From a virus (taxonomy: Duplodnaviria > Caudoviricetes), in IMG/VR virus record IMGVR_UViG_3300029913_000001: DNA of 64,000 nucleotides; one strand, 5' to 3'. Numbering within the stretch: the first letter of the stretch is position 1; every line of letters starts with the position of its first letter. The notes under the pieces were generated by a model. The model was not told the DNA's origin. It worked only from the letters and a program-made list of their open reading frames with translations, and searched no databases. The position numbers were made by a program, and so were the translations under genes. Shown piece after piece: positions 2,739 through 48,883 of this stretch.

Positions 2739-2774
2739 AAGTAATACTCCTTTTATTTTAAATTGTTAATGGGG

Positions 2775-2802
2775 ATGAGGCCAAGTATTAAACTGGCCTC
2801 AT
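2775..2802 (-). terminator. Hairpin downstream of gene 32
   Basis: ATGAGGCCA-agtattaaac-TGGCCTCAT inverted repeat in the intergenic gap. Confidence 0.45.
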
Positions 2803-2816
2803 GTTAGAAAGGATTA

Positions 2817-27457: not shown

Positions 27458-28221
27458 TGAAATCTGCAGAATTTTTAATTGAGTTTAACGGAACGAAAAA
27501 AATAGCAAACACTAATAATCTACTCAAAATACTCGAGAATGATTGTTCAGAAGCGTTATCGGCGAGTAAACACGGAAACAAAATTTTTAAAGGCTTACGC
27601 AATTTAAATGGAAATTTTTTTCTAGCGGATCCGACTAAAAAAATAAGACATAGCCGTAATACTAATAACTATTATACTTTATTACTGGATAATTTGCCGA
27701 GTTGGGCAAATTATCCAAAAAGAAGTAATAGTTTAATTTGTACGAATTCTAAGTGGAAAGCAGATTTATACGGAGCAGGTTATGCGGTTATACCGGTTAA
27801 TGGTACCGAAATTGCCGTGTGCCCGGCTGATGATATATGGTTTAGTTTTAAAGCGAATAATATATATAGTTTAGGAAGTTTTAATAAACTATTTAATAAT
27901 CACCAAATATCGGAAAAAAATTACGTTGATTTTCTAAAATCTTGTTTGCGTGAAAAAAATTATTTATTAAGAGATTTTAATAGTTTTAATTTTCGCGAAC
28001 TCGCAATAGCCTTTAAAGATGCACAATCAATAAGTGACTTTGAAAATATTTTTAATAAAATATTTGACCCGACCACCAACGGATTTAAAAAATATAACCT
28101 CTCAAACATGAATATTGGCGATGAAAGTCGAGAAATTTGGACTTCAGGTAAATCGTATTTAATTAATACAGAGTCAATGTTCTATAAAACTAATCTAGAG
28201 ACCTATAATGGAGATTACTAA
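27457..28221 (+). CDS. ART-like protein, subfamily B; MKSAEFLIE leader
   Basis: FKG...NYYTLLLD..W.NYPKRSNSLICT...YG...EIW. Confidence 0.5.
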   Translation: MKSAEFLIEFNGTKKIANTNNLLKILENDCSEALSASKHGNKIFKGLRNLNGNFFLADPTKKIRHSRNTNNYYTLLLDNLPSWANYPKRSNSLICTNSKWKADLYGAGYAVIPVNGTEIAVCPADDIWFSFKANNIYSLGSFNKLFNNHQISEKNYVDFLKSCLREKNYLLRDFNSFNFRELAIAFKDAQSISDFENIFNKIFDPTTNGFKKYNLSNMNIGDESREIWTSGKSYLINTESMFYKTNLETYNGDY

Positions 28222-33840: not shown

Positions 33841-35589
33841 GTGATAGATATATTACAAAACATTATTAATACAAGACCGTTCTATGCATCCCGAATTATT
33901 GCTAATAATACCGAAATGTGGAAATGGGTAATGCAACATTGCGATCCTTTATGCATTGATGACAAAACTCGAATTTATACCGCAATATCAGGCGAAAAAA
34001 TTCAATGCCCATGCGGCTCCGGAAAACTTAGAAAATTGTCTAAATGGTATTCGGGATTATCTTTTTGTGGAAGAGCAGGAAAGTGTTCTGCTGCAAAAGA
34101 AGCGGTGATTAAAAAATGTACCGCCGCTGCCAAAGGATGGGATAAAAAAGCGGCCGCTGCAAAAAGAAAAACAACGAATCTTAAGAAATATGGCATAACT
34201 AATACCGGCCAGCTTGAAAAATCAAAACTTGCTAGAAAAGCAGTGTACGACGATCCCACTAAAGTCAAAGAAATTCTTCAAAAAATGCAGGCCACTAACC
34301 GGGAACGATATGGTGTTGATAACCCATCTCAAAATCCAGAAATTCATAAACGTCAGACGAATACAATGTATGAGAGGTACGGCGCGGCTAACGCCATTAA
34401 AATTGCAGATTTTAAAAATCAAATGCAGCAAACTAATATCGAAAGATATGGCGTACCATACGCATCACAAAATGCAGATATTGCAAGAAAAATTGGGCTA
34501 ACTAAAAAACAGACCATGTTGGAGGGAACTGGCAGGCCACACGAAACTCAAATTCATATATCTAACGATGCATGGAATATTCTTCATGATAAAGATAAAT
34601 TTACTGAATTGTTAACCTTACTTGGACGCACAGAATTAGCAAAAATGTTAGGAGTATGTGTAAATACTATTTCCGTATATCATTATAATTTTGGGCTAGA
34701 TATATTAAAAAATTCAGAATCGGCTGTGGAAATTGAAATTACGAACTGGCTCACTGGATTAAATATAAGTTCCCATAAAGATCGAACAATATGTGAGGGA
34801 AAAGAATTAGATTTTTATATTCCTTCATATAATCTAGCAATTGAATATAATGGCCTATTTTGGCATTCTGAAGCACGAGGAAAAGATAAAAATTATCATT
34901 ACAATAAAATGTTACAATGTAATAAAAATAACATCCATCTAATTCATATTTTTGAGGATGAGTGGATTAAAAATCCAAACACATGCAAATCAATTATACA
35001 GCAAAATCTTCATCTAGGAAATAGGATTGCTGCACGAAAATGCAAGATTAAAGAAATCCCCAATAACGACATGCGGGAATTCTTAAACAAAAATCATTTA
35101 CAAGGTTGGGTTAACGGAACGCACGCATATGTGCTGACCTATCAAGATGAAATTGTGGCGGCAATGACATTTGGCAAACCTCGATATAACAAGCAAGCCG
35201 ATTGGGAACTTTTACGACTTACATTTAAAAACAACACAGTTATTATGGGTGGCGCTCAAAAATTATGGAAATTCGCCATTAATGAATTACAGGCAACATC
35301 TATTATCTCTTATTGCGATCGGCGATGGTTCACCGGCGCGGTGTACAATAAACTCGGATTCACTCTTAAAACTCCGGGTGCGCCTACATATTGGTACACA
35401 GATTATGTCTCTAGATGGCACCGTAGTAAATTTACAAAGAAAAATTTATTAAAATTAAGCAAAAATATCGATATAAATCCTACCCAAGAAGATTGGTCTA
35501 TATATAGTGAATCCCAAATAACAAAAGATATTCTCGGATTAGATCGAATTTGGGATTGCGGTCAAGATAGTTGGTTTTGGACAAAATAG
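33841..35589 (+). CDS. Putative homing endonuclease (PD-(D/E)xK/Hef-like, YGVxNP repeats)
   Basis: ELDFYIPSYNLAIEYNGLFWHSE; ARKC..HLQG..ISYCDRRWF..GF C-terminal domain. Confidence 0.85.
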   Translation: MIDILQNIINTRPFYASRIIANNTEMWKWVMQHCDPLCIDDKTRIYTAISGEKIQCPCGSGKLRKLSKWYSGLSFCGRAGKCSAAKEAVIKKCTAAAKGWDKKAAAAKRKTTNLKKYGITNTGQLEKSKLARKAVYDDPTKVKEILQKMQATNRERYGVDNPSQNPEIHKRQTNTMYERYGAANAIKIADFKNQMQQTNIERYGVPYASQNADIARKIGLTKKQTMLEGTGRPHETQIHISNDAWNILHDKDKFTELLTLLGRTELAKMLGVCVNTISVYHYNFGLDILKNSESAVEIEITNWLTGLNISSHKDRTICEGKELDFYIPSYNLAIEYNGLFWHSEARGKDKNYHYNKMLQCNKNNIHLIHIFEDEWIKNPNTCKSIIQQNLHLGNRIAARKCKIKEIPNNDMREFLNKNHLQGWVNGTHAYVLTYQDEIVAAMTFGKPRYNKQADWELLRLTFKNNTVIMGGAQKLWKFAINELQATSIISYCDRRWFTGAVYNKLGFTLKTPGAPTYWYTDYVSRWHRSKFTKKNLLKLSKNIDINPTQEDWSIYSESQITKDILGLDRIWDCGQDSWFWTK

Positions 35590-35623: not shown

Positions 35624-37162
35624 TTAAATATGTTTCCAAGTTTTTCTAGAAATAATATAATAGATAATTACATCTGACACTCCAAATTCATTCGCGAATG
35701 ATTTATATGTGGTAACTCCTTTTATATATCTAGATCGAATTTCTAATACTTGAGATTCAGTAAGTTTGGCTTTTGCACAACGTTCACCTTTTGGACCGGT
35801 GCCGGGATGTAACTTGCCTTTTTGCGCAAGACTCATGTTAGCGCGGGCTTCGTCTGATTTTGGTTTATTTTTTAACGCTTCTCTAATTTTTTGTTTTGTT
35901 ACTTCGGATCGGCATCTTCCTCGATTTGGATTATTTTCGCTAGATAAAGCCGTTGATATTTTTTGAATTGTCTCCGGAGATTTATTTTTACCTGGGTTAG
36001 CATCACTTTTCATGCGATTCGATAATCTCTGCCGAGCCTCTGCCGATATATTCGATGAACGACCTTTCATTTTTAGACTCTGTGCTAATTTTTGTTCGGG
36101 TGTTTTGTGTGTTCCAAAATTCGGATTATCTGCGCCGCATCTAGGATTTTTAGCGTGCGCAATACTCATATTTTCTTTTGCTTTTTCTGATTTCGGTACT
36201 CCTTTCTGCGCGGCGCTCATTTTCTTTTTAGTCTCTTCTGATTTGGGTTTACTATTCGCTTTGCGAATTCGTTCTAGCCCACCTGGCCCAGGTGATTTTC
36301 TTCCAGCCGCATTAAGATTAATCCACCTAGAATCGTTAACTACGTGGCATCGGCGTAATACCGATTGTTCCCAATAATCTGCTTGTGGAATTGTATCAAA
36401 AGTTCGTCTTATTTCATATTCAAATGATTCGATTCCATATTCTTTAATTAATTTATTAATTTGCTTGGAACTAGTAGTATAATTAAACATAAAATCTTGC
36501 AACGGAGTTAGACCTAATTTAATATTTTTAGTTCTAACTCCATAATAAACTTGGCCGGTCGGCTTAAATTTAAGTAGATATGTATATGGTCGAATTTCAT
36601 TTATTTCTCTTTGATATTTCGAACTATATTGTCTACGGGTTTTAATCCGATTATCGATTACTTTTTGGATTTTCTCTTGTTTTAGTCGTTCTTTTCCTCT
36701 CTTATATTTTTCCGAGCAAGCTCGTCTAATTAATTCTCGTTCAGTTTTACGACGTTCGAATTCTTCAACTCGTTCTGGGATTTGTGCTGCATTAGTAACG
36801 CCTTCACCATAGGTCTCTTCCATATTTTCCATTCGATGTTCAACCATTTGCTGAACTGCTTCTGGATGAGTTTTCCAAAAATTCGATAAATTTTCTGCCT
36901 GACTTGCAGATTTACATTTTTTCGATCCGCATGTATTCCAATATCCTTTTTCAAATGTATTAAACAATAAATTCTCACCGCAATCACATTTCGATGGCTC
37001 AATATTCCTAGTAATGCAATAAAATTGCTCATTAATATTACGACAATTTCTTGTATTATTCCAATTATCCAAAAATTTTCGAAGTTCCGGCCTCGAATGT
37101 ACTAATCTATGAAAACTTTTTGAATTATATTTTTGTACTAGCTCTTGAATTAATGAAATCAT
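35624..37162 (-). CDS. GIY-YIG-like homing endonuclease with NUMOD3 repeats and C-terminal HTH
   Basis: PYTYLL...YYGVR; repeated K.SEETKKKMS; AKLTESQVLEIR. Confidence 0.85.
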   Translation of the reverse strand: MISLIQELVQKYNSKSFHRLVHSRPELRKFLDNWNNTRNCRNINEQFYCITRNIEPSKCDCGENLLFNTFEKGYWNTCGSKKCKSASQAENLSNFWKTHPEAVQQMVEHRMENMEETYGEGVTNAAQIPERVEEFERRKTERELIRRACSEKYKRGKERLKQEKIQKVIDNRIKTRRQYSSKYQREINEIRPYTYLLKFKPTGQVYYGVRTKNIKLGLTPLQDFMFNYTTSSKQINKLIKEYGIESFEYEIRRTFDTIPQADYWEQSVLRRCHVVNDSRWINLNAAGRKSPGPGGLERIRKANSKPKSEETKKKMSAAQKGVPKSEKAKENMSIAHAKNPRCGADNPNFGTHKTPEQKLAQSLKMKGRSSNISAEARQRLSNRMKSDANPGKNKSPETIQKISTALSSENNPNRGRCRSEVTKQKIREALKNKPKSDEARANMSLAQKGKLHPGTGPKGERCAKAKLTESQVLEIRSRYIKGVTTYKSFANEFGVSDVIIYYIISRKTWKHI

Positions 37163-37318: not shown

Positions 37319-38503
37319 CTATGAAAAACTCAAATTTGCAACCGAAATCGAACTCAAATAATCGGCAGCATTACCCAAAGAACTAACGGAATTTGTTAGT
37401 TCAACGTATCCATATCTCGTGAGAAATGAGACCACGGGTTCGAAGGTAACTGGGTCAAGAACAACACCAGAACTCATCAAAGGAATATATGGACAGTAGA
37501 AAGCCGCTGCATCTGACTCACTTGCGCCCTTATAACCAACCAATACTGGAATTGCGTCATTTGCATAGCCGTCAACATAAATCTTCATTGAGCTATTCAA
37601 AGTTCCTACAAATTTAGTGTTAGTTGGCGCCTCAAATGTGCCTTCAGTTGTTCTTGCGAACGCTGAAGTAGTTGCTGACTGAAGAACAGTTAGTGCCGTA
37701 GGACTTACAACTGCCCAGTTACCTGCACCTCTACGTGTTCTCTGAGCAATTAAGTTAGCTGCTCGGTTAATCATAACTGCAAGTGCCGCGTGCTCATCGC
37801 CTACATAAGTAGCAGTACCTGAAACCAATGACTGATCAAAAGTCTGATCTGTGCCACTTAATGCGCGTAATGAACCCAAGATTTCCTGATCAATTTCAGC
37901 GGTGATTTCCTGAGCCAATGCAGCCATAATTTCGGCTTCTACATCAATACCGTGCATTGCCTGAGCGTCCTGAGCCGCTTCAAATGTCCAACGTGCAGAT
38001 AGCTTACGTGACTTAGCTTCAACAGTCTGACGTAGAATCTGAACATTGATCTTGTTACCAGCCTGTCCTTCTAGGTTAGCAGTCCAATCAGCCTGTCCAG
38101 TTGTTGCACTACCAGAGTAAGCAGTTGCAATCTTGAATGGGCTTAGGGCTTCGTCGCCTGCTGTCGTGCCAGTATTCCACGGATAAGGAGCAGTAACATT
38201 TTCAGTCTGAGCATATCGTACACGCAAAGTCTGAATCTGACCTACTGGGCCTGTCATCGGCTGTACACCAACTAACTCGTTAGCGATAACGGTTGGCATA
38301 ACACGTCGAATAACCGGTAGAATTACACGATTTAATGTTGCGATATTACCGGCTGCTGTTGAGCCACTAGTTGCACTCTCAAGCAGTGATTTGCGGGTGT
38401 TCTCGAGGATTGTAGCCATAACTGTCTTACGGTTACCTTGAAGTCCTTCGAGCAGGGCATTTTTTGTGTCAGCCCAACGATTTTCCAATAATGGTGTAGC
38501 CAT
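37319..38503 (-). CDS. gp23: Major capsid protein (T4 gp23-like)
   Basis: VGVQPMTGP.G, VEAKSRKL.A.WT.E.AQD, EI.AEID, FYCPY.PL, TRYG motifs. Confidence 0.98.
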   Translation of the reverse strand: MATPLLENRWADTKNALLEGLQGNRKTVMATILENTRKSLLESATSGSTAAGNIATLNRVILPVIRRVMPTVIANELVGVQPMTGPVGQIQTLRVRYAQTENVTAPYPWNTGTTAGDEALSPFKIATAYSGSATTGQADWTANLEGQAGNKINVQILRQTVEAKSRKLSARWTFEAAQDAQAMHGIDVEAEIMAALAQEITAEIDQEILGSLRALSGTDQTFDQSLVSGTATYVGDEHAALAVMINRAANLIAQRTRRGAGNWAVVSPTALTVLQSATTSAFARTTEGTFEAPTNTKFVGTLNSSMKIYVDGYANDAIPVLVGYKGASESDAAAFYCPYIPLMSSGVVLDPVTFEPVVSFLTRYGYVELTNSVSSLGNAADYLSSISVANLSFS

Positions 38504-38514
38504 TGTTCTTCTCC

Positions 38515-39582
38515 TTAAATATTATACCCTGCTAAACGTTTAATTGCCGTGAGGGAATCTTCATCCTGCGGTACTACGGTTTTAACAGCTTTGTCACCAG
38601 TAGATTCACTAATCATCTGTTTTCCAGTAGTAACCTGTTTCTTATTGGTTAATACCGCTGGCAAATATTTGTCGTATGCAGATCGTAATTGCGGAGTCTG
38701 CACAGTTTCTAATAATTGGCTCATTACTGCTTTCTTACTTCTATCTAATGGTGAAAGCAATTCCGAAAGTACGGTTGCCCGCGCCGCTCGGTTATTTAGT
38801 TTAATTAAATTCTGCTCTCTCGACTCAGCTATCTTAGTTGCCTTTGCTAACTTAGTCGTGACTTCATCTAATTTATTCTTAATTTTACGAACTTCTTTAT
38901 TTTCGTTTAAATATGTTCCTGTAAATTCAGTTGCAAAGGCTTCATAGATCTTACGGCCAAAATTATTCTGCCGTGCAATCTTTAGATCACCGTGTAACTG
39001 TGTTAGTTCATGATTTAAAGTTTCGGCAACAATTTTACTTACTGCCTTACTGCTTCTTGCAATGAACTTCTGTTTTAGTGCGGCTAACTGATTCTTTGCT
39101 TCAGAAATTAACTTGACTCTTGTTTCAGCCAAGGTCTTCTTATCTTCTGCAAATTCATTAATCTCTTCTGCTAGTGAACTAAAAACAAACTTTTCTAACT
39201 TTTTCTTATGAGCTTCTGTTAATTTACGCTCTTGCGCAAACTCTGCTAGCTCTTCAGCCAAGGCACGTGTTGCAAATGCATTGAACTTTTTAGCAGCGGA
39301 TTTCATTTCATTAACTGTTTTGAGTTTTAGCTTCGATACCTGATTGCGCTCTTCTTTAACCTGGGATATTTCCTTTGATAAAGTTTCGGCGACCATTTTG
39401 TCAAGTGTCTTGACCATAACTTTTTTATCATGCTCGTAACGCTCGGCGAATTCTTCACGGGTATTAGTCCGAATTTCGGACTTCATCTCCGTTAACTTCG
39501 CCTCCCATGCAGCATTGATGGCAGTTCGAGTCTCTTCATTTATTACTCCACTCTTAAGGAGTGATTCGAGAGCATCCAACAT
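38515..39582 (-). CDS. gp22: Prohead core scaffold (gp22-like)
   Basis: Coiled-coil, directly upstream of the capsid gene; ATAAATA at 39604-39610. Confidence 0.85.
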   Translation of the reverse strand: MLDALESLLKSGVINEETRTAINAAWEAKLTEMKSEIRTNTREEFAERYEHDKKVMVKTLDKMVAETLSKEISQVKEERNQVSKLKLKTVNEMKSAAKKFNAFATRALAEELAEFAQERKLTEAHKKKLEKFVFSSLAEEINEFAEDKKTLAETRVKLISEAKNQLAALKQKFIARSSKAVSKIVAETLNHELTQLHGDLKIARQNNFGRKIYEAFATEFTGTYLNENKEVRKIKNKLDEVTTKLAKATKIAESREQNLIKLNNRAARATVLSELLSPLDRSKKAVMSQLLETVQTPQLRSAYDKYLPAVLTNKKQVTTGKQMISESTGDKAVKTVVPQDEDSLTAIKRLAGYNI

Positions 39583-39655: not shown

Positions 39656-39970
39656 TTACTCGGTATCTTCATCCCCACCTAAGTCTTCTAACTCAGCGAT
39701 TGTATCTTCCATTGTGCATCCAGCTTTTCCCATGTACTCATGCTCATTACTTAAAGCCATTTTAATATTTGCATACCAATATGATTTAGCACGGGAAACA
39801 ATATGATCTCCCCCAGGAATTCGCCGTACTTGATTCAATGCTTGATCAATTCTCTCTACTAGTTCGGACATTTCTTCCCAGCATTCGGATAACTCTGATA
39901 ATGTTTCTCCGCCGTCAAAAGATTCCTTAACCAACTTTTTATATTTTGTTATTTCCTCGATTAAATTCAT
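39656..39970 (-). CDS. MNLIEEITKY-leader protein
   Basis: GGAG Shine-Dalgarno; shared leader. Confidence 0.7.
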   Translation of the reverse strand: MNLIEEITKYKKLVKESFDGGETLSELSECWEEMSELVERIDQALNQVRRIPGGDHIVSRAKSYWYANIKMALSNEHEYMGKAGCTMEDTIAELEDLGGDEDTE

Positions 39971-39972
39971 TA

Positions 39973-40464
39973 TTATCTCCTGTTGCATTCATCAATCTTT
40001 AATTTGCCTTTCTTTGAAAACGGCCCCGGTGTTACTTTTGATTCGTCGATCAATTCCCAATTTTCCTCAAAATTTTGAACTTTGTCCCAATCTTTATTTT
40101 TAACAGCATTGCGATATTCTATTACTTCTTTTTCTGATGGAACTCGAAACTTATCCCCAGAATGACTTGTTATAATTCTTTCGCCACCGTTACCTAAAGG
40201 CATTGATCCTGTAGGTACTGATTCTTTAATCGATCCCCATTTATTTTTCTGTTTTGCACGAATGGCAAATGTAAGTTGATGCTCTTTTTTCTTAAGAACT
40301 TCTGTCTTATTTGGATTTTTCTTGCATTTAGCTAATTCGGCCTTTAACTCAGAAAGAGTATAATTTTTCCATTTACCCTCATCTTTTTTCTTGGTGGCCA
40401 TCTTCTCATTCCAAGACTCGTTTAAAACATTTTGATATTTTGTTATTTCTTCAAGTAAATCCAT
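39973..40464 (-). CDS. MDLLEEITKY-leader protein
   Basis: GAGGAG Shine-Dalgarno; shared leader. Confidence 0.75.
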   Translation of the reverse strand: MDLLEEITKYQNVLNESWNEKMATKKKDEGKWKNYTLSELKAELAKCKKNPNKTEVLKKKEHQLTFAIRAKQKNKWGSIKESVPTGSMPLGNGGERIITSHSGDKFRVPSEKEVIEYRNAVKNKDWDKVQNFEENWELIDESKVTPGPFSKKGKLKIDECNRR

Positions 40465-40480
40465 GTTGGCTCCTCAGTTC

Positions 40481-41041
40481 TTAATCATAATACGATGGTG
40501 TATATTTACGTGTCTTCGGTTTTTTAACCTGTCTAACTCCGTGTTTAACTAACCAATCAGCAAATTCTTTAACATTAGTAAATCCAGTAGATTTTAAATT
40601 ATCTTTTCCATTCATAAACCATGCTTCTGGATTATGAGAGGAAATATCTTGTACTACTAATCTAACTGGGCTAAACAAATAAAATTCTAATTCATCTACA
40701 TCTGCCGGGCCAACCTTACTAATCGTTAAATCTGATATAACTCGAAAGACTTGTTTTTCTTTCGGATCTGTAAAATCTTTTGGATATTTCATACGCGTTT
40801 CAAGCGACGATAATTCAGCCATTTCATAATCATATTTGTTATAATAATGATCAACAGTATTTTCATCTTGAGGACCATTAAGAAATTTAATTATAATTTT
40901 TGCATCACGTAGTGGCAATCGAATACCATACTCTTTTCCAATGGAAATCAATTCTTCCGGAGTTTTTCCTGCTAATGGCCTAGGCACCGATGATTCCAAT
41001 ATAACTCGTTTATAATTTTGAATTTCTTCTATTAGATTCAT
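40481..41041 (-). CDS. MNLIEEIQNY-leader protein
   Basis: AAGGA Shine-Dalgarno; shared leader. Confidence 0.75.
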   Translation of the reverse strand: MNLIEEIQNYKRVILESSVPRPLAGKTPEELISIGKEYGIRLPLRDAKIIIKFLNGPQDENTVDHYYNKYDYEMAELSSLETRMKYPKDFTDPKEKQVFRVISDLTISKVGPADVDELEFYLFSPVRLVVQDISSHNPEAWFMNGKDNLKSTGFTNVKEFADWLVKHGVRQVKKPKTRKYTPSYYD

Positions 41042-41051
41042 AAAAAATTCC

Positions 41052-41456
41052 TTATTTAATATATTCTTTACCTTTATTTAAAATAATATTAAATTTATCT
41101 AAATATTTCTGAGCTCGCTCTGGATTATCAAAATCAAAATAAACAGGTAGATGAGTATTTCCCGTATGAATAATTTCAACTTCATTTGTTAACCGATCAT
41201 ATTTTGTGATAATAAATTCCATTCCGGCGACATCCTTATCAACGCCATTAGAATATCTTGTAAATTCCGAATTGGGTGCAGTTTTACCAGGACCACTGAA
41301 AGCCTTTTCAAATGGGTGCTCTGCAACATTTAATGGAAGATGGGTGGTATGTGTCTTAATATGCTCATTCTCTTCTTTATAGGAACGAGGAGTAAACTCA
41401 TCTTCCGATTCATTTAATATAGATCGATAATTTTGCATTTCTTCTAATAAATTCAT
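41052..41456 (-). CDS. MNLLEEMQNY-leader protein
   Basis: Start refined to 41456 from the shared leader. Confidence 0.75.
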   Translation of the reverse strand: MNLLEEMQNYRSILNESEDEFTPRSYKEENEHIKTHTTHLPLNVAEHPFEKAFSGPGKTAPNSEFTRYSNGVDKDVAGMEFIITKYDRLTNEVEIIHTGNTHLPVYFDFDNPERAQKYLDKFNIILNKGKEYIK

Positions 41457-41457
41457 A

Positions 41458-42189
41458 TTACCATGCCTCACGAGAATTTTCATCGTCAAATTGACGAGCT
41501 GCTTCTTGTTTCCAACCACCGGGATCTCTATCAATCGGCTGTTGAGCTATTTCTTTTTCTAATGTAAGTCGAATAGTTTGAAGTGTGTTTATAAACTCGA
41601 TACCCATATCACTAGAAGCATCGATATGATATAGTTTACCATTAACGAACTTTAATAACTCTGGTAAACCACCATCAAGCGGCTCTTCCCAAGCCTCATT
41701 AGCCAAAGATTCTTTAAGCGTGTGTTTTAAAAATTCTTTTGAAAAACTTATTGACTCGTAATATCTATCACCATAAGCTCTCAACTTATCTGATTTTCTG
41801 CCAAATATTCCAATCTTTGCTAATCCATCATATAACTTATTTTTTTCATATGCTGCTAGAATATCACCATTGACCGCTTTTCTAAGTGCGGGAAGAATTT
41901 TTCCTATTCGTTCATATGCTACATCTGGACCATTATCGGTTATAGTTCTATAAACTACCAATTTTTCTAGCTCTAACTGAGGATTTTTAGCATGACTAAT
42001 ATCTCCCCAATAACCATAGCAATCGGGGTCCTGTTCTTTAGAAATTTTAACAGCTTTCGGATATCTTTTTGTACACAAAAATATACTAGGATATTTTTTT
42101 GCTAACTCGATTGGGGTCAAGTGGGCTTTTTTAACTGCCCCTTCTATTAATATTCCTCGATAATTCTGAATTTCTTCTAATAAATTCAT
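41458..42189 (-). CDS. MNLLEEIQNY-leader protein
   Basis: AGGAG Shine-Dalgarno; shared leader. Confidence 0.75.
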   Translation of the reverse strand: MNLLEEIQNYRGILIEGAVKKAHLTPIELAKKYPSIFLCTKRYPKAVKISKEQDPDCYGYWGDISHAKNPQLELEKLVVYRTITDNGPDVAYERIGKILPALRKAVNGDILAAYEKNKLYDGLAKIGIFGRKSDKLRAYGDRYYESISFSKEFLKHTLKESLANEAWEEPLDGGLPELLKFVNGKLYHIDASSDMGIEFINTLQTIRLTLEKEIAQQPIDRDPGGWKQEAARQFDDENSREAW

Positions 42190-42197
42190 GATTTCTC

Positions 42198-42848
42198 CTA
42201 ATTTAGTTTCAATTCATTAATGAATCGAGTTAATTCTTCTTTAAGGTAGCGTTGAACTTTTGGGTTCGATTTAACTTCAGCCGCCATTTCAAAAACATCA
42301 TCACCATTTTTACGGAAGTTACGCAGGCCTTCATATACAGGGATGGGGAACGCATTCGGAGCCGATGGCTGGGCGACTACATCAACAGTAACAATTTCAA
42401 AGTCGCTAACGTAACCACTACTCTCATTAACATTACCCGAACCGCGAGAACTAACCCCCAATTTACACCCACTCTCAAGAATAGTCTTAATAATATTACC
42501 CATTGGGGTAGGAATAATCTTTAATTTACCGCAGCCATTTGCACCTTCCATCCACATCGAGGAAATAGAGTGACTAATACGATCTATATTAATATTTAGA
42601 CCAGTTGGATGGTCTCCTTCTCCGAAAATTGGAGCCCCCGATTCAATCAAGGTATTCATCGCCGTAACGGCTCTTTTAATTTCTGTTACCGGATAAATTC
42701 TCTGATTATAGTTTCTAACATCGCCTTGAATGAAGATTCCCTTCATATACAGATCTTTTTGCTTCTGCCCAGACGCATTAACTGATTCTGCCACTTCAGT
42801 TATCATTGTTGCGGGATTTTGATATTCAAACAACGGAATCTTATTCAT
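42198..42848 (-). CDS. gp21: Prohead protease (gp21-like)
   Basis: GIFIQ....N.N.RIYP, GE.DHP, GVSSRG.G, D.V..PSAP.A motifs. Confidence 0.97.
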   Translation of the reverse strand: MNKIPLFEYQNPATMITEVAESVNASGQKQKDLYMKGIFIQGDVRNYNQRIYPVTEIKRAVTAMNTLIESGAPIFGEGDHPTGLNINIDRISHSISSMWMEGANGCGKLKIIPTPMGNIIKTILESGCKLGVSSRGSGNVNESSGYVSDFEIVTVDVVAQPSAPNAFPIPVYEGLRNFRKNGDDVFEMAAEVKSNPKVQRYLKEELTRFINELKLN

Positions 42849-42897
42849 AGTATTACCTCTATTATTATTTATAGTATTACCTCTATTATTATTTATA
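42847..42897 (-). repeat. Perfect 24-bp tandem duplication of late promoter plus Shine-Dalgarno
   Basis: Two copies of TATAAATAATAATAGAGGTAATAC immediately before the gp21 start. Confidence 0.92.
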
Positions 42898-42931: not shown

Positions 42932-42960
42932 AATGGGAAGGTAAAATACCCTTCCCATTT
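42932..42960 (-). terminator. Hairpin after the acidic core gene
   Basis: AATGGGAAGG...CCTTCCCATT. Confidence 0.65.
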
Positions 42961-42983: not shown

Positions 42984-43856
42984 TTAAAGAACACTTTTTT
43001 TATTTGTTCCTTCGCTATCTCCGGTTTTCTTGACAGATGGACCGGGCTTTAATCGGGCCTTGCCACCGGGTACATTAACTACATCTGGTGTAAACTTGCC
43101 GGACGTTGGTGTTGGACGCCCCTTTTCAGGACTGCCACCCTGAGCAATATTCTTGGCAGAAATGCCCTTAACAATCTCATTCTTACCAGCAACAGGAGAC
43201 TTTTTCTGTGTACTCGGCTCTTCTGTTGAATTGGCAAGACCTTTGGTTACCTTTTCTACATACTCACGGATAACACTTTCGTCTACCGGCTCTTCATCAT
43301 CTTCATCATCCAAGTCGTCTTCCTCATCTTCAGACTCAGTTTCAGTTTCGTCATCGTTATCGTCAGACTCGGTTTCAGTTTCAGTTTCGGTTTCGGTCTC
43401 ATCTGAGAATTCGTCTTCATCTTCGAAGTCATCGTCGAGATCTTCGGTGTCGTCTAGATCTAGATCTTCTGCTTCGGTATCTAATGAAGCATCTTCAGAC
43501 TCATCGTCACCATCCACCTGTAATTCATCAAATTCTGCCTTAAGAGCATCAAACTCGTTCTCAAGATCGGAAAGACGATCATCGACTTCGGGTGTTAGTT
43601 CTTCGTCTTCTAGATCAGAATCAGCAAGAACGTCAGATTTAAGATCATCCTGCTCGTCTCCGCCAAACTCATCTAACTCGTGGGAAGTTTCGTCTGACTC
43701 AACTTCATCAAAGTTTCTAGAAGTATCGCCGTCTAAATCTAGATCCTCATAAATTTTACGACTCTTGTCAACAACGATGCTATGAAAAAGTCGGCGAGCC
43801 TTTTTCTCATCATTTGCAACTACATATTCGATAAGTTTTTCAAACTTAGATGCCAT
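42984..43856 (-). CDS. Highly acidic prohead core protein (gp67/gp22-like)
   Basis: Long Asp/Glu tract then VIREYVEKV; start refined to MASKFEK. Confidence 0.7.
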   Translation of the reverse strand: MASKFEKLIEYVVANDEKKARRLFHSIVVDKSRKIYEDLDLDGDTSRNFDEVESDETSHELDEFGGDEQDDLKSDVLADSDLEDEELTPEVDDRLSDLENEFDALKAEFDELQVDGDDESEDASLDTEAEDLDLDDTEDLDDDFEDEDEFSDETETETETETESDDNDDETETESEDEEDDLDDEDDEEPVDESVIREYVEKVTKGLANSTEEPSTQKKSPVAGKNEIVKGISAKNIAQGGSPEKGRPTPTSGKFTPDVVNVPGGKARLKPGPSVKKTGDSEGTNKKSVL

Positions 43857-44022: not shown

Positions 44023-44883
44023 TTACTTTTCTTTTATTTCTTTCCATTCATTAACTAACGCTTTTATTTTTTCTACATTTCCAAGAGCTCTAAAATATCT
44101 GTTCGATAAATTACCATTAGATTTATAATTTTCTTGATTATCCCAAATACGACTTATAATCTTCTGGTTATTTTCTACGGTTACAAATGGGTGCCAAATA
44201 TGAGATACAGAACTCGGTAATGTTTTATGTGGGCCGTAAAGTGTGTCCATTACCCGCATTGCGGTAACATCTTCCCCTCCCCAACCACGAAATCTTTCAT
44301 CCCAGCCACCGGTAATTTTAAAAGCCTCCCTTGGCATAATTTGAAATAATGCACCATAACGATGCCCATGGACCGACCCAGACAACCCATTAAAATCTTT
44401 AGTTATTAAAATTTCATCGGTTTCGGGCTCATGATATTTATTATTTGAATTTGTTTGTAACAATTTTTTTGATGCAGATTCATTCAATCGAAAAAATTTT
44501 CTATATGGTATAAACCAGAGCGTATGTTTTTTCTTTCTTGCTTTTCTAATCTCCATAGCACATTTTAACACCGAATCGGTTGATATATATCCATCGGCGT
44601 CCGCAATAACAAAAATATCTCCCAATGCTCTTTTAGCAGCATAATTAACCGCACAGGCTTTTGAAAAGGGTTGGTTATTTATATTAACTTTTTCATCGAT
44701 TCCCATAATAATTTCTGCGCCCGGCAAATGAAATTTCCAATATTCATATAACCAGTTCCAATTTAGAGTTCGTTGATTAGCTGAAGGCGAAGAATAAAAT
44801 GGAACCAGAATGCTAATACCATTGCCTTTCAAGCAAAAAAATTTTGCGATAGTAAATTTAATTAGTTGGTAATTAATTTTCAT
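44023..44883 (-). CDS. Glycosyltransferase (GT-A fold, GT2/GT7-like)
   Basis: ILVPF, FSKA.AVN, IADAD, GGWDE.F.GWGGED motifs. Confidence 0.85.
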   Translation of the reverse strand: MKINYQLIKFTIAKFFCLKGNGISILVPFYSSPSANQRTLNWNWLYEYWKFHLPGAEIIMGIDEKVNINNQPFSKACAVNYAAKRALGDIFVIADADGYISTDSVLKCAMEIRKARKKKHTLWFIPYRKFFRLNESASKKLLQTNSNNKYHEPETDEILITKDFNGLSGSVHGHRYGALFQIMPREAFKITGGWDERFRGWGGEDVTAMRVMDTLYGPHKTLPSSVSHIWHPFVTVENNQKIISRIWDNQENYKSNGNLSNRYFRALGNVEKIKALVNEWKEIKEK

Positions 44884-45644
44884 ATAACTTTTCCTAATTC
44901 TCGAAGTGCATCATAAATTGAAAATTTGACTTCTTCGACAAGAACTCTAGATGGTTCAACCATTTTTCCTAACTCAAATGGCGTTCTAATTGACGCGCTA
45001 TAATCTCGAAATTTAAATAAGCCGCCTTCATTCGCCATTTTTTCGCAAAGTTCTACACGCCGTGGAATTCCGCCAAATGAATCAGCCACAATCATTCCAT
45101 GTAAAGAAGACGTAACTATTCTACGACTAGCACCGATTTCACTAATCACCTGTAACGGCGGATCTAAAGGATTAATTACCTTAATAGAAAATTTATTTGG
45201 AATTAATTTTTTAAATCGACTAACTAATTCTGTATCTCGCCAATGAGGGACAATTCCCAAATCCCATTGTTTTTTAATTGGCTCAATTAATTCATTTGCT
45301 AATATACCAGGATCGCCCAATGTAAAATTACCGCTAAACCCTCTAGCAGATAATGGGCCGCGCAAAGCTAAAATTTTTGCAGTTGAACCAAACGAGCCCA
45401 ATCTCGAATTCTCAAATAATTTTCCCGACCCCACAATGTAACCATCCCAGTCAGGAGGAATATATTCTAAAATTGATCCGCAAACCGTAACCAATGATCT
45501 CGAAATGGTATCTCTTTCCACTTGTTTAATATCGGCAAACCGCGAAAGAATCAACGGAGTTAACGCATCCCCAAAATTAGGCATTTTATTCCACCAAAAC
45601 GCTTTAATTGAAGAGTTTGCTCTAAAAAATTTTGAAAGAATCAT
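44880..45644 (-). CDS. Polysaccharide pyruvyltransferase-like protein
   Basis: NFGD, GSIL, LRGPLS, GDPG, SSLHG.I.ADSFG motifs. Confidence 0.8.
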   Translation of the reverse strand: MILSKFFRANSSIKAFWWNKMPNFGDALTPLILSRFADIKQVERDTISRSLVTVCGSILEYIPPDWDGYIVGSGKLFENSRLGSFGSTAKILALRGPLSARGFSGNFTLGDPGILANELIEPIKKQWDLGIVPHWRDTELVSRFKKLIPNKFSIKVINPLDPPLQVISEIGASRRIVTSSLHGMIVADSFGGIPRRVELCEKMANEGGLFKFRDYSASIRTPFELGKMVEPSRVLVEEVKFSIYDALRELGKVI

Positions 45645-45688: not shown

Positions 45689-45913
45689 TTACATTACCCC
45701 GGCGCCGGCGGCTGGAGCTCCATATTGTCGTTGAATATCTTCTAGGTTTTGCTGCATTTCAAATTTACGAACATCATCAATTTTACGCAATTGATTAATA
45801 TGGCCGAGAGTTAAACGTACCTTTCTAAGATCGTTAAGACGAGGAATTTCTTGATCATCCTGCGGATTCTCATAGCCCTTATCATATTCGCCGAACATTT
45901 CATCTAGAATCAT
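45689..45913 (-). CDS. Small head-region protein
   Basis: RK.RLTL..INQLRK motif; position next to the portal cluster. Confidence 0.65.
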   Translation of the reverse strand: MILDEMFGEYDKGYENPQDDQEIPRLNDLRKVRLTLGHINQLRKIDDVRKFEMQQNLEDIQRQYGAPAAGAGVM

Positions 45914-45923
45914 AAATTCACCA

Positions 45924-46253
45924 TTAATTATTATCTATTTCTTTTTTAAATCGATCAATTTCATACTGAGCATCAATTAAATTAGTTTCATCTATTATCC
46001 AAGGATTGGAACTCATCGTAGTCCCATCAGATGCACTATTTGCCGCCTCTACTTGTTGAATCGATCCATCTATTGCTTTAAAAATTAATAATGCAGCAGA
46101 GTCTTCATATCCCGACCAATAATCAAAATAAATTATAGAATCTATTAAATCTATATCAGCGTCCGGCCAAATTTCTTTAATAGATTCTATATCGGTTAAT
46201 GAAATATTTTCGGTTATTTTTCGATATTTTTGTATTTCTTCTAATAAATTCAT
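45924..46253 (-). CDS. MNLLEEIQKY-leader protein
   Basis: AAGGA Shine-Dalgarno, ATAAATA upstream; shared leader. Confidence 0.7.
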   Translation of the reverse strand: MNLLEEIQKYRKITENISLTDIESIKEIWPDADIDLIDSIIYFDYWSGYEDSAALLIFKAIDGSIQQVEAANSASDGTTMSSNPWIIDETNLIDAQYEIDRFKKEIDNN

Positions 46254-46287: not shown

Positions 46288-48045
46288 TTATGCTCCGGGA
46301 GTTGCTGCGGCTGAAGCTTCGGCTGTACCGGCAGTGGGAACATTCCCTCCTCCACCCATAGCGCCGGCTTCTTCCGATCCTCCGGGCATTTCGCTACTCT
46401 CTTCACCCATACCCATATCTTCTCCTCCACCAAAAGTTTCCATGTCGCCTTCTATACCGCCTGGAGTTATACCTATATTCCTGAAATCAGATGGTTCCGA
46501 CGAATATTGCTCTGGTGAAATATTTTCTTCACGCCACATTTCCTGATTTTCTAATAACTCATCTGGTTTCAATCCTAAGAATCGAGTCATTAACCAGCGT
46601 TTTGAAAAATATGGATATGCTTCTAATTGAGTGAATGTGTTAATTTTAGCCGAATCCAATTCTGCTTGACGATAACTTGCAAAATTTTGAGGAGGAGTAA
46701 ATTCTAATTGAAAAATACTCGAATCAATATTAATTCCACAAAATTTTAAATACGCTTTAAACTCTACATCCAATGGGCCGCAAATAAGTTTTTGTAATCT
46801 CTGGCAATATTGATTAAATCTAAATTCTTGAATTAATGCCGTTCCCACCCTACCATCGTTTAATGTTGCGGAACTTTCCTCTGGACCGGTTGGCAAATAA
46901 CTACTAGGAATACGAAGGCCACGCATCATCTTATTGTTAAAATACAAAAGATCGGAAATTTGGCCCAAGTTTTCTCCGCCTGGAAGAATTTCAACAGAAC
47001 TGCCTCGCCCTGCAGCGGTTTGTGGGAAAAAGAAATCTGCATTCGGAGGAAGACCTTGATAAGAACTATCCATGAAATTTTCGTTACCGGCTCTTCCAGG
47101 AATTCTCCGTTGATGCATCTCATTCTTAACTTTTTCCATAAACTGCATAGCCATGTGGCTAGGCATATCACCAACATCGATTTTGAAAACTCTACGTTCA
47201 GGTGCTCGTTGAACACGATAAATCAAAATTGAATCTTCTAATAGTTCTTTTTGTTTAAAAACTTTGAAAATTAATTCAAGAATACTATTACCAAACGGCC
47301 AATTAGGATCTAATCCCTCGGTTAATGATAAATGAAGAATATTAGTTGCGTCGATACAATTCTCGTTTTGCCCATGTACAAACCGGCTACTAGAACTATT
47401 GGGACTATTCGGCATATTATAACCAGAACCTGATGAAGAATATCCTGGCCCAGATGGGACAACATTATATAGATTATTCGAAGCTACCTGTGTTATTGTT
47501 AAATTTTGAAAATTAGGATTAATATTTCTAATTATATATTGCTCTGGCTTTTTCCCGTCACTTTCATTAACAATAACCTTAATAACCTGATCCATTTCAA
47601 CATAAAATAATTTAAACGTTTCGGGATCCCGAATAAATACTTGGTCGCCGTATTTTAAAACATTTCGAAACAATCTAAATGCCCGTTTATTAAATTCATT
47701 AAGATAATACCAAGACTGAAGTTGTTTATCAATTAATTTAGATTCAGTTTCTGTTGGAGTATCTTTATATTTAATAGTAAAGCACATATGATTTTGCTCG
47801 TCTGCTTGCGTACTAAACTCAGCCAAAATATCTAGCGCTGAATTTACCTCACTATCGCAATCCATTCCTTCCCAGCTTTGGTATCGAGAAATGCGATTTG
47901 GGCAGCCTACGTAGGACTCAGGAATCATATTCGGATATGAATTTGTAGCGATTGCATCTTCGCCTGTATTAGACTTTCGGCGATGAGTCAACGGACTATC
48001 AATACCCGATTCATTTCGTGCTAATTTGAAATATTTTTTCCACAT
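46288..48045 (-). CDS. gp20: Portal protein (gp20-like)
   Basis: LLEDSILIYRVQRAPERRVFKIDVG, DFFFP, RG..VE.LPGG.NLG motifs. Confidence 0.98.
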   Translation of the reverse strand: MWKKYFKLARNESGIDSPLTHRRKSNTGEDAIATNSYPNMIPESYVGCPNRISRYQSWEGMDCDSEVNSALDILAEFSTQADEQNHMCFTIKYKDTPTETESKLIDKQLQSWYYLNEFNKRAFRLFRNVLKYGDQVFIRDPETFKLFYVEMDQVIKVIVNESDGKKPEQYIIRNINPNFQNLTITQVASNNLYNVVPSGPGYSSSGSGYNMPNSPNSSSSRFVHGQNENCIDATNILHLSLTEGLDPNWPFGNSILELIFKVFKQKELLEDSILIYRVQRAPERRVFKIDVGDMPSHMAMQFMEKVKNEMHQRRIPGRAGNENFMDSSYQGLPPNADFFFPQTAAGRGSSVEILPGGENLGQISDLLYFNNKMMRGLRIPSSYLPTGPEESSATLNDGRVGTALIQEFRFNQYCQRLQKLICGPLDVEFKAYLKFCGINIDSSIFQLEFTPPQNFASYRQAELDSAKINTFTQLEAYPYFSKRWLMTRFLGLKPDELLENQEMWREENISPEQYSSEPSDFRNIGITPGGIEGDMETFGGGEDMGMGEESSEMPGGSEEAGAMGGGGNVPTAGTAEASAAATPGA

Positions 48046-48151: not shown

Positions 48152-48883
48152 TTAATCCTTCTGCGCGACTAACGTCATATTTTGCTCGACATATGTTCTA
48201 TCTTTGGTCAGTTGCTTCTTTTGCTTCGATAATTTATTATATTGATTCCATAATGCTGTTCTTTTTGGGATGTTTTTAAATTTCATGAACTCTGCCCATA
48301 TTCTTTTTTGTTCAGCTTCTAAAGATTTAAATTTTTTCTCATCGTATTCTACATCTGTATCATATAAATCAGTTTCACCAAATAAATCATGCTTGTCTAG
48401 ACTAATAGCCTCTTTCTTTTTATCATCCCATGCAAAAACTAAAATACCAGGAATCTTTGCTAATTTTTCCCAAATTGTTTTGCCACCTTTTGTCTGGGCA
48501 TCAGTTGACCACAATGTATAATTTTTATTTTTAATAAGATATGCATACACCGTTGTTGCTAAACCAATACCTAGGTAGGGAGTATCAACCGCGGTTTCTA
48601 CAATAGAATATGATTTTCTAAGTTTAATTAATTCAATAAATCCAGCAATTTTTTTATTAACGGTATCAAAAATTTGAATCATTTGAGTTGAATGAATATT
48701 AGAAATGCCTGGCTCTTCTCTAAAATATAAATCGAAACCCGATATATTTCCTAATTTAACTTTAATTTCATTTCCATTATCATCTTCATTAAAATCTGTA
48801 TAATCCCATCGATGCACTAAGGTAGTAAACATAGAGTGTTTTGCTGGCGGCGCGGATGCATATCTCAATTCATTTATTCTCAT
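48152..48883 (-). CDS. GNAT-fold-like protein; MRINEL leader
   Basis: AVDTPYLGIGLA...Y...DAQTKGG..IWEKL. Confidence 0.6.
   Translation of the reverse strand: MRINELRYASAPPAKHSMFTTLVHRWDYTDFNEDDNGNEIKVKLGNISGFDLYFREEPGISNIHSTQMIQIFDTVNKKIAGFIELIKLRKSYSIVETAVDTPYLGIGLATTVYAYLIKNKNYTLWSTDAQTKGGKTIWEKLAKIPGILVFAWDDKKKEAISLDKHDLFGETDLYDTDVEYDEKKFKSLEAEQKRIWAEFMKFKNIPKRTALWNQYNKLSKQKKQLTKDRTYVEQNMTLVAQKD

What the first reader, a model, noticed from the sequence alone, without database searches (positions are those of the whole stretch)
39656..42189. Array of five unrelated genes sharing an MNLLEEIQNY leader, between protease and scaffold genes
Seen: starts at 42189, 41456, 41041, 40464 and 39970 (plus a sixth copy at 46253, beside the portal gene) all encode M[ND]L[LI]EE[IM][QT][NK]Y and end in LIEG, LNES, ILES, LNES, VKES or ITEN. 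The first 33 nt or so are similar at DNA level (atgaatttattagaagaaat...). Everything after the leader is unrelated. Known: T4 internal proteins share a capsid-targeting leader removed by gp21, and the IPI locus is hypervariable. Inference: this is a second leader class defining a swappable cassette array of packaged, possibly anti-defence, proteins, with the leader DNA as a possible recombination handle.
Basis: partly seen in the sequence, partly recalled or inferred. Interest (0 to 1): 0.75.

Follow-up and report, generated by a model that had tools for sequence, protein, structure and literature searches.

The report
Head-targeting leader on swappable phage genes
Six unrelated small genes inside the head-assembly operon of an uncultured giant T4-related phage begin with the same 16-residue tag, which ends in the cutting site of the neighbouring head protease. 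They are most likely cargo proteins loaded into the capsid, as with phage T4's internal proteins, and close relatives carry different sets of them.

Summary
Exactly six ORFs in the window, all on the minus strand, start with M[ND]L[LI]EE[IM][QT][NK]Y. None is expected by chance. Five lie between a gp21-type prohead protease (Peptidase_S77, catalytic His and Ser present) and the scaffold gene. The sixth follows the portal gene. The parts after the leader show no detectable similarity to each other.

The leader ends in hydrophobic-x-E followed by S, G or N. This is the same motif as the predicted capsid-protein maturation site, which aligns with T4 gp23's known cut. Aligned at the cut, the leader keeps the four positions mapped as functional in T4's capsid-targeting sequence (Y-x-x-hydrophobic-hydrophobic-x-E).

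The closest uncultured relatives found (capsid protein 92-94% identical in the three where it could be measured) keep the leader but carry different cargo. Numbers, sizes (87-778 aa) and positions differ. One cassette sits on opposite sides of the protease in two relatives. Three payload domains occur elsewhere behind other leaders.

Best reading (0.7): a long-form T4-type capsid-targeting propeptide on a fast-changing set of packaged proteins. Packaging, ejection and any anti-defence role are inferred, not shown. The recombination-handle idea has only weak support. The same genome also carries a shorter T4-like leader, and this scan has reported similar leader arrays on other DNA. I rate it a new member of a known kind.

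The parts
41458..42189 (-). Cargo gene w1 (243 aa). Leader MNLLEEIQNYRGILIE|G. Residues 39-144 are a ~105-aa all-helical domain of unknown function that ends ...DRYY, followed by a ~100-aa extension.
   Evidence: The domain family has 44 cluster representatives. AF2 pLDDT is 92-98 over residues 30-140, with no fold match.
41052..41456 (-). Cargo gene w2 (134 aa). Leader MNLLEEMQNYRSILNE|S. Its start lies 1 nt after the w1 stop.
   Evidence: The payload is 48% identical (E 9e-29) to a 115-aa ORF in L005 that starts MKIFEIAARS instead.
40481..41041 (-). Cargo gene w3 (186 aa). Leader MNLIEEIQNYKRVILE|S.
   Evidence: Homologue P0003 (52%) sits in a leader array in L171. The C-terminal half matches the end of the 760-aa cargo in L093 and Phosso XYS97807.
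39973..40464 (-). Cargo gene w4 (163 aa). Leader MDLLEEITKYQNVLNE|S. Basic (mature pI 9.7) and lysine-rich, with a PGPFSKKGK motif.
   Evidence: It is the only payload module recurring in most relatives (L005, L090, L093).
39656..39970 (-). Cargo gene w5 (104 aa). Leader MNLIEEITKYKKLVKE|S. Acidic (mature pI 4.3).
45924..46253 (-). Cargo gene w6 (109 aa). Leader MNLLEEIQKYRKITE|N. Acidic (pI 4.1). It lies between the portal gene and the small core gene.
   Evidence: L005 carries a different leader-tagged gene at this position. Vibrio phage 2.275.O and CBB have no gene there.
42198..42848 (-). Prohead maturation protease of the T4 gp21 family. H80 and S133 align with T4 H85 and S140.
   Evidence: Pfam Peptidase_S77, E 7e-23. 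PDB 5JBL, E 2e-12. Residue check.
38515..39582 (-). Scaffold (T4 gp22 position). The [LIV]xE[SAGN] motif is about 4 times enriched relative to the window's other ORFs.
   Evidence: phrog_10922, E 4e-75. Synteny. Motif count 1.69 against 0.44 per 100 aa.
37319..38503 (-). Major capsid protein (gp23 family). All four [LIV]xE[SAGN] motifs lie in residues 5-43. The predicted cut LLE42|S43 aligns with T4 gp23 LTE65|A66.
   Evidence: Pfam Gp23, E 3e-96. BLASTP alignment to T4 gp23. Motif positions.
46288..48045 (-). Portal protein (T4 gp20 family).
   Evidence: Pfam Portal_T4, E 1e-91.
42984..43856 (-). Acidic prohead-core protein. By position and by eye it resembles T4 gp67 (LIExxxxNDxxxARxLF followed by an acidic tail).
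   Evidence: Conserved across the clade. The similarity to gp67 is not significant by BLASTP.
45689..45913 (-). Small conserved core-region gene (74 aa).
   Evidence: phrog_13986. Present in nearly all related loci.
42866..42897 (-). Two copies of TATAAATA (the T4 late-promoter consensus), 18-49 nt upstream of the protease start codon.
   Evidence: The motif count over the whole window is not above chance, so the position is only suggestive.
42932..42959 (-). Terminator-like hairpin (10 pairs plus a T run) between the acidic gene and the late-promoter motifs.
35624..37162 (-). GIY-YIG/NUMOD3 homing-endonuclease-like gene just downstream of the capsid gene. Relatives carry such genes directly after the protease.
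   Evidence: Pfam NUMOD3 and SegE_GIY-YIG. Relatives L005, L009, L010, L017 and L021.

Best explanation
The six genes encode head-internal cargo proteins.

- Their first 16 residues (consensus M-N-L-x-E-E-[ILM]-x-[KN]-Y-[RK]-x-[IVL]-[LIV]-x-E) form a short amphipathic helix with a hydrophobic stripe at positions 3, 7, 10 and 13/14.
- By analogy with T4's capsid-targeting sequence, this helix docks the protein onto the scaffold/protease core while the prohead assembles.
- The adjacent gp21-type serine protease then cuts after the final Glu (hydrophobic-x-E, then S, G or N). It would cut the capsid-protein propeptide and the scaffold in the same way.
- The mature proteins (10-26 kDa, acidic, neutral or basic) stay in the head with the DNA and probably enter the host with it.
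- The five-gene array is transcribed late, in one unit with protease, scaffold and capsid genes.
- The sites between protease and scaffold and after the portal gene are hot spots where relatives gain, lose, move and rebuild leader-tagged cargo genes.

Shown here: the leader, its peptide-level conservation, the cleavage-type motif, the protease family, the operon layout and the turnover. Inferred: targeting, cleavage, retention, ejection and host-directed function.
For: 1. Six of six leaders sit at ORF starts, and none is expected by chance.
2. Selection acts on the peptide. 40% of differing codon pairs in codons 1-10 are synonymous, against 7% in codons 17-32. The leader persists in relatives whose conserved genes are only about 70-77% identical in DNA.
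3. The protease is Peptidase_S77 with the catalytic His and Ser.
4. The leader ends in [LIV]-x-E. The same motif occurs four times in the capsid protein's first 43 residues and nowhere in its mature part. LLE42|S43 aligns with the known T4 gp23 cut at E65|A66. The motif is about 4 times enriched in the scaffold.
5. T4 IPII and IPIII leaders read MKTYQEFIAE|A. Aligned at the cut, Y at P7, hydrophobic residues at P4 and P3, and E at P1 match five of the six window leaders (w6 is one residue shorter, so its Y falls at P6). These are the positions reported as targeting (4, 7) and processing (8, 10) determinants (PMC9026906).
6. Gene order matches T4's 20-67-68-21-22-23. Gaps within the array are 1-16 nt, and late-promoter motifs lie upstream of the protease.
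7. Turnover is extensive. Protease-to-scaffold content is 5 genes in the window, an endonuclease plus 1 in L005, an endonuclease plus 3 in L009, 5 tagged genes plus a 1113-aa untagged gene in L090, and three genes of 760, 424 and 778 aa in L093. One cassette lies downstream of the protease in L090 and upstream of it in L093.
8. Payloads are portable between leaders. The w2 payload follows MKIFEI... in L005. The w1 domain follows MKITRTQLRSIIKE|A in a marine array of at least six genes sharing that leader (L176). The w3 domain follows MTSRQNDIRNIMNLME|S in the cultured phage Phosso.
9. The literature records T-even internal proteins as diverse proteins sharing only the leader, and T4's three as inhibitors of type IV restriction enzymes (PMC3012670; PMC12373910).
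Against: - There are no virion data for this phage or for any carrier of this leader. No deposited phage genome has a near-identical leader.
- Three of 20 leaders in relatives lack Glu at position 16. One (L5b) has it one residue later, so two (L90d, L93c) may be cut elsewhere or not at all.
- Position 4, hydrophobic in T4 and in the window, is T, R or N in many relatives, so the N-terminal alignment to T4 is not exact.
- The more distant relatives, more than 150 loci with capsid protein 65-81% identical, show no such leader near the head genes, so this is not a general trait of the group.
- No payload has a recognisable function. There were no Pfam or PHROG hits and no fold match for w1.
Confidence: 0.7

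Rival explanations
1. The tagged proteins are auxiliary assembly (core or scaffold) components needed to build the large head, like T4 gp67, gp68 and partly IPIII. They would be degraded or remain as structural filler and would not act on the host.
For: They lie inside the morphogenesis operon between protease and scaffold. The basic w4-type module recurs in most relatives. T4 IPIII mutants assemble heads more slowly (PMC9026906).
Against: Number, size and sequence differ sharply between phages whose capsid proteins are 92-94% identical. The wider clade builds heads with no genes in this slot. A GNAT enzyme domain is among the tagged cargo in L005.
Confidence: 0.12
2. The shared 5' end is a nucleic-acid element (a translation-initiation or operator module, or a recombination junction) carried by tandemly duplicated genes. 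The encoded peptide would have no function of its own.
For: The first 20 nt are identical in three copies and each has an AGGAG-like site. The leader is the only DNA shared by non-orthologous cassettes.
Against: Synonymous changes are enriched in the leader. Upstream DNA is not conserved (3-15 of 25 nt). Relatives keep the peptide pattern with different codons. The motif ends exactly in a protease-type site.
Confidence: 0.06
3. The leader sends the proteins somewhere other than the capsid, for example to a host membrane, a secretion route or a degradation pathway.
For: No direct evidence. It is an N-terminal amphipathic helix.
Against: It is acidic and has no hydrophobic core or twin-arginine motif. 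It occurs only next to head genes or in arrays with capsid-leader-type genes, and it ends in the head-protease motif.
Confidence: 0.04

Closest known systems
[quoted passage not shown] 1994, as cited in PMC9026906, PMC3012670 and PMC12373910)
   Same: - A short N-terminal leader is shared by otherwise unrelated small proteins.
- The leader ends in hydrophobic-x-E next to a gp21-family protease.
- Aligned at the cut, the leader keeps Y-x-x-hydrophobic-hydrophobic-x-E.
- Long and short leader forms coexist in one genome (T4 IPI 19 aa against IPII and IPIII 10 aa).
- The loci vary between close relatives.
- The head-gene order is the same: 20-67-68-21-22-23.
   Different: - The leader sequence is different (MNLLEEIQNY... 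against MKTYQEF...), 16 aa long.
- The genes sit inside the head operon, between the gp21 and gp22 homologues and after the portal gene, not in distant early/late accessory regions.
- Cargo in relatives reaches 760-778 aa, and domains shuffle inside cargo proteins.
- The host and the phage lineage are different (an uncultured jumbo phage).
- There are no virion or functional data.
Ejection and inner-body proteins of phiKZ-like giant phages (phiKZ, 201phi2-1, SPN3US), processed by a gp21-like protease (PMC5694885, PMC7411985)
   Same: Giant phages that load many proteins into the head. A gp21-related protease removes N-terminal propeptides that probably act in targeting.
   Different: Their propeptides are mostly longer than 100 residues and the cleavage motif is S/A/G-x-E (AQE, AVE, ALE). 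Here the leaders are 16 aa with L, I or V at P3. The head genes here are T4-type and include a recognisable scaffold.
Rak2-like and related jumbo phages (Vibrio phage 2.275.O, Cronobacter GAP32, Pectobacterium CBB, Sinorhizobium phage Phosso)
   Same: These are the nearest deposited genomes by capsid protein (67-72% identity) and have the same head-gene order. Phosso has two leader-bearing genes right after its protease: MRASELFE... and MSGPDLRKFMNILNE|S.
   Different: 2.275.O and CBB have protease and scaffold genes adjacent with nothing between them, and no match to the leader pattern anywhere in their genomes.

Membership tests
T4-type capsid-targeting-sequence / internal-protein system | A gp21-family (Peptidase S77) prohead protease with catalytic His and Ser is encoded by the phage | tested here: met
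   Pfam PF03420, E 7e-23. PDB 5JBL, E 2e-12. H80 and S133 align with T4 H85 and S140.
T4-type capsid-targeting-sequence / internal-protein system | A short (10-20 aa) N-terminal leader is shared by proteins that are otherwise unrelated | tested here: met
   Six leaders of 15-16 aa. Best BLASTP E between payloads is 0.36.
T4-type capsid-targeting-sequence / internal-protein system | The leader ends in the protease consensus (L/I/V)-x-E | tested here: met
   Six of six in the window, and 17 of 20 at position 16 across relatives. The same motif marks the predicted capsid maturation site, which aligns with the T4 gp23 E65|A66 cut.
T4-type capsid-targeting-sequence / internal-protein system | Residues equivalent to T4 positions 4 and 7 (targeting) and 8 and 10 (processing) | tested here: inconclusive
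   Aligned at the cut, Y10, hydrophobic 13 and 14, and E16 match T4 Y4, F7, I8 and E10 in five of six window leaders (PMC9026906). An N-terminal alignment is also possible. Function of these residues was not tested.
T4-type capsid-targeting-sequence / internal-protein system | The loci are polymorphic between close relatives, with only the leader conserved | tested here: met
   Five different array contents in the window, L005, L009, L090 and L093.
T4-type capsid-targeting-sequence / internal-protein system | The proteins are present in proheads and virions with the leader removed | not testable with these tools
   The phage is uncultured and no proteome is available.
T4-type capsid-targeting-sequence / internal-protein system | The proteins are ejected into the host and act there (for example as inhibitors of type IV restriction enzymes) | not testable with these tools
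   No payload has a recognisable family or fold.
phiKZ-type inner-body / ejection proteins | Long (>100 aa) propeptides and an S/A/G-x-E cleavage motif | tested here: not met
   Leaders are 16 aa with L, I or V at P3. Compared with PMC5694885.

The most novel reading that the evidence does not exclude
The two coexisting leader forms in this genome act as two different addresses: the short T4-like M[KR]xxE[FIL]..E and the 16-aa MNLLEEIQNY...LxE. They would direct cargo to different partners, copy numbers or layers of the prohead core, and perhaps to different release times on infection. The long form would be used for cargo encoded within the head operon itself. A phage could then sort its injected proteins by tag.
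Probability: 0.12. Interest if true: 0.7.

Novelty: new member of a known kind. Interest (0 to 1): 0.45.

Why it matters
If the leader does load proteins into the head, the set of proteins this phage packages and probably injects can be read directly from its sequence. The protease-to-scaffold slot would then mark a fast-evolving pool of candidate host-takeover or anti-defence proteins in a lineage with no cultured member.

Earlier notes of this scan report a DNA-hypermodification gene cluster in the same genome. In T4 that setting goes with internal proteins that block modification-dependent restriction enzymes.

The tag could also serve as a protein-packaging handle for engineering in this phage group. 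Finally, the recurrent ~105-aa '...DRYY' cargo domain, seen behind unrelated leaders in distant phages, is a concrete target for functional study.

Tried and rejected
- **Complex prediction.** Scaffold (27-row alignment) with the first 45 residues of the leader proteins (17 rows) gave no verdict: score 0.00, controls not run. It is not used for or against binding.
- **Payload function.** Pfam and PHROGs gave nothing for any window payload. The ESM Atlas gave no usable hit for w1 or w3. tblastn against 50,697 phage genomes found no match for w1, w2 or w4, and only Phosso for w3. The confident AF2 model of w1 matched nothing in PDB, AlphaFold DB clusters or BFVD.
- **Leader in cultured phages.** A degenerate DNA pattern and a leader profile found nothing in 2.275.O or CBB, and only the Phosso sequence already in the profile. 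tblastn with 21 leader residues found nothing. A tblastn with the Phosso leader-like protein found only Phosso itself, so no homologue with virion data turned up.
- **Own genome.** No whole genome is held for this window, so I could not count this leader elsewhere in the genome.
- **Repoila et al. 1994.** The paper could not be read. I cite it only through reviews.
- **gp67 homology.** The acidic protein's similarity to T4 gp67 is visible by eye but not significant by BLASTP.
- **Payloads as diverged paralogues.** Set aside: no similarity between them, very different lengths and charge, and homologues behind other leaders.
Full report
**What is there.** The region lies in the head-assembly module of a large T4-related phage.
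- Read on the minus strand, the genes are: portal (Pfam Portal_T4), a leader gene (w6), a small conserved gene, two inserted sugar-transferase-like genes, an acidic core protein, a Peptidase_S77 protease, five leader genes (w1-w5), the scaffold, and a Gp23-family capsid protein.
- Apart from the inserts, this is the T4 order 20-67-68-21-22-23.
- The nearest deposited genomes are jumbo phages: Vibrio phage 2.275.O (capsid protein 72% identical), Sinorhizobium phage Phosso (68%), and GAP32 and CBB (67%).
- The protease keeps the catalytic His and Ser of T4 gp21 (H80 and S133 against H85 and S140).

- A six-frame search finds exactly six matches to the leader, all at ORF starts on the minus strand. 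200 shuffles gave none.
- An all-against-all comparison of candidate N-termini found no other family with at least 8 of 16 identical residues in the window. The shorter leader described below falls under that cut-off.
- The proposed ATGs are the sensible starts. Each follows an AGGAG-like site or is coupled to the previous stop, and gaps within the array are 1-16 nt.
- With the leader removed, the six proteins show no similarity to each other (best E 0.36). They differ widely in size and charge (mature 88-227 aa, pI 4.1-9.7).

**The leader is a peptide signal.**
- In codons 1-10, 23 of 58 differing codon pairs are synonymous, against 16 of 231 in codons 17-32.
- The 25 nt upstream are not conserved beyond the ribosome-binding site.
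- Across 20 leaders from the window and relatives, the profile is M1, N/E2, L3, x4, E5, E6, I/L/M7, x8, K/N9, Y/F10, R/K11, x12, I/V13, L/I/V14, x15, E16, then S/G/D/E/A.
- The conserved hydrophobic residues at 3, 7, 10 and 13/14 follow the 3-4 spacing of an amphipathic helix. The AF2 model of w1 places a helix at residues 3-11, at modest confidence.

**The leader ends in a head-protease site.**
- The capsid protein has four [LIV]xE[SAGN] motifs, all within residues 5-43.
- BLASTP aligns LLE42|S43 with T4 gp23 LTE65|A66, the known gp21 cut.
- The motif is about 4 times enriched in the scaffold.
- The window leaders end LIE|G, LNE|S, ILE|S, LNE|S, VKE|S and ITE|N.

**Comparison with T4's capsid-targeting sequence.**
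- T4 IPII and IPIII start MKTYQEFIAE|A, and IPI starts MKTFKEFTSTTTPVSTITE|A.
- Aligned at the cut, T4's Y4, F7, I8 and E10 correspond to Y10, hydrophobic 13, hydrophobic 14 and E16 in five of the six window leaders (w6 is one residue shorter). A review reports positions 4 and 7 as the targeting determinants and 8 and 10 as the processing determinants (PMC9026906).
- The first ten residues (M-x-hydrophobic-hydrophobic-E-x-hydrophobic-x-x-Y) also resemble a shorter leader present in this window, for example MKIIELLLEY at 31459 and MKKFSEYLFE|S at 14718. Earlier notes of this scan reported that shorter leader on enzyme families of the same genome.
- I therefore read the present leader as a long form of the T4-type signal, comparable to T4 IPI against IPII and IPIII.

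**Expression.** Two TATAAATA motifs lie 18-49 nt upstream of the protease start, after a strong hairpin that follows the acidic gene. No terminator-like site lies between the protease and the scaffold. This fits late co-transcription with the head genes. However, the motif count over the whole window is at chance level, so this point is only suggestive.

**Relatives.** I scanned 168 related loci from IMG/VR and JGI/ENA metagenomes with a leader profile.
- Scores of 16 bits or more occur only in the window and in its closest relatives L005, L006, L007, L009, L090 and L093. Capsid protein identity is 93%, 92% and 94% for L005, L009 and L090; the other loci do not reach the capsid gene.
- The more distant relatives, more than 150 loci with capsid protein 65-81% identical, have protease and scaffold genes 12-20 nt apart or separated only by a homing endonuclease, and show no such leader.

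| Genome | Content between protease and scaffold |
|---|---|
| Window | 5 tagged genes |
| L005 | split GIY-YIG endonuclease plus 1 tagged gene; 2 more tagged genes between portal and acidic gene, one with a borderline GNAT domain |
| L009 | endonuclease plus 3 tagged genes |
| L090 | 5 tagged genes plus an untagged 1113-aa signal-peptide protein |
| L093 | 3 tagged genes of 760, 424 and 778 aa, plus 1 tagged gene upstream of the protease |

- The tagged gene upstream of the protease in L093 is 50% identical (E 1e-18) to the first gene downstream of the protease in L090.
- At DNA level, homology between these genomes stops at the end of the protease and resumes about 30 nt before the scaffold. 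In between, only leader segments and two payload patches match.

**Payloads move between leaders and contexts.**
- The w2 payload has a 48%-identical homologue in L005 that begins MKIFEIAARS, which resembles the short leader.
- The w3 homologue P0003 lies in a three-gene array with this leader (MNINEDLRKYRTILAE|A, MNLFEELARFKAIVTE|E, MNLTEELARFKAIVNE|G). That array is outside any head module, next to a homologue of window gene 31459.
- The C-terminal half of w3 also ends the 760-aa cargo of L093. It also matches Phosso XYS97807, which starts MTSRQNDIRNIMNLME|S.
- Residues 39-144 of w1 form a confidently modelled all-helical domain with no known fold relative. The domain has 44 cluster representatives, and many are small proteins with other leader-like N-termini. 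One sits in a marine array of at least six genes that all start MK[IV]T[KR]xQL[RQ]xII[KN]E.
- Phosso, which is cultured, has two leader-bearing genes directly after its protease: MRASELFE... and MSGPDLRKFMNILNE|S.

**What is not shown.** Nothing here demonstrates packaging, cleavage, ejection or an anti-defence role. The complex prediction gave no verdict.
- The analogy to T4 is close. T4's three internal proteins each inhibit a different GmrSD-type restriction enzyme and share only the leader (PMC12373910). T-even internal proteins are described as diverse proteins with only the targeting sequence conserved (PMC3012670).
- The recombination-handle idea has limited support. The longest exact runs between leaders are 20-21 nt, in three pairs.
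- Homing endonucleases at the same junction in L005, L009, L010, L017 and L021, and after the capsid gene here, are an alternative driver of turnover.

**Verdict.** This is a real and well-delimited feature. It is best explained as a long-form T4-type capsid-targeting propeptide on a fast-changing cargo set embedded in the head operon. The mechanism is known from T4. The same genome carries the short form, and the scan has noted comparable leader arrays in at least eight other genomes. I rate it a new member of a known kind, with moderate interest.

Noticed in passing
window 44023-45644 (-): Two genes lie between the small core gene and the acidic core gene of the head module: one is polysaccharide pyruvyl-transferase-like and the other glycosyltransferase family 2-like. 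L010 and L090 also have them, but the wider clade and T4 do not.
   Followed up: partly
window 35624-37162 (-); L005 3059-3910; L009 9645-10310; L010 7548-8096; L017 2165-2761: GIY-YIG/NUMOD3 homing-endonuclease genes sit at the edges of the head genes. Here one follows the capsid gene, as segD does in T4. In relatives one directly follows the protease, at the edge of the cargo array. They may drive the local gene turnover.
   Followed up: partly
window 41758-42075 (w1 residues 39-144); P0005-P0048; L176: An unnamed ~105-aa all-helical domain (…YPK…GPDV…SDxLRxxxDRYY) has 44 cluster representatives and no Pfam or fold match. It often follows capsid-leader-like N-termini. One member sits in a marine array of at least six genes that all start MKITRTQLRSIIKE.
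   Followed up: partly
window 14107-14718 (-), 59419-59910 (-), 27457-28221 (+), 31459-32775 (+), 17392-18135 (-), 48152-48883 (-): Other genes in the window start with a shorter T4-like leader (MKKFSEYLFE|S, MKLFSDFLME|E, MKSAEFLIE|F, MKIIELLLE|Y, MRIFEIQE|N, MRINEL…). This is the 'first class' that other reports of this scan cover.
   Followed up: no
L090 6245-9586: A 1113-aa protein with a signal-peptide-like N-terminus and three CHB_HEX_C/Fn3-associated domains, but no leader, is inserted in the middle of the cargo array of a close relative.
   Followed up: no
w4 (window 39973-40464), L005 2317-3033, L009 11034-11783, L093 3481-4755: The basic, lysine-rich cargo proteins share a short PGPF(S/T)K(K/H)G motif, sometimes twice, and two of them have C-terminal CxxC zinc-ribbon-like ends. 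This may be a DNA-binding internal protein conserved across relatives.
   Followed up: no
L005 5644-6378 and 6964-7515: Two different tagged cargo proteins share a 31-residue internal segment (ESF(E/D)SVR(D/N)EKDEHFY…, 77% identical). This may be a linker or a second processing module.
   Followed up: no
window 33916-35589 (+): A 557-aa protein has internal repeats of an …ERYGV… unit. A similar segment occurs at window 673 (-).
   Followed up: no
L178 (Phosso) 1365-3659: Phosso has two tandem acidic core proteins with the same N-terminal motif (KVLDLLIAEDREEA…) where this window and T4 have one gp67-like protein.
   Followed up: no
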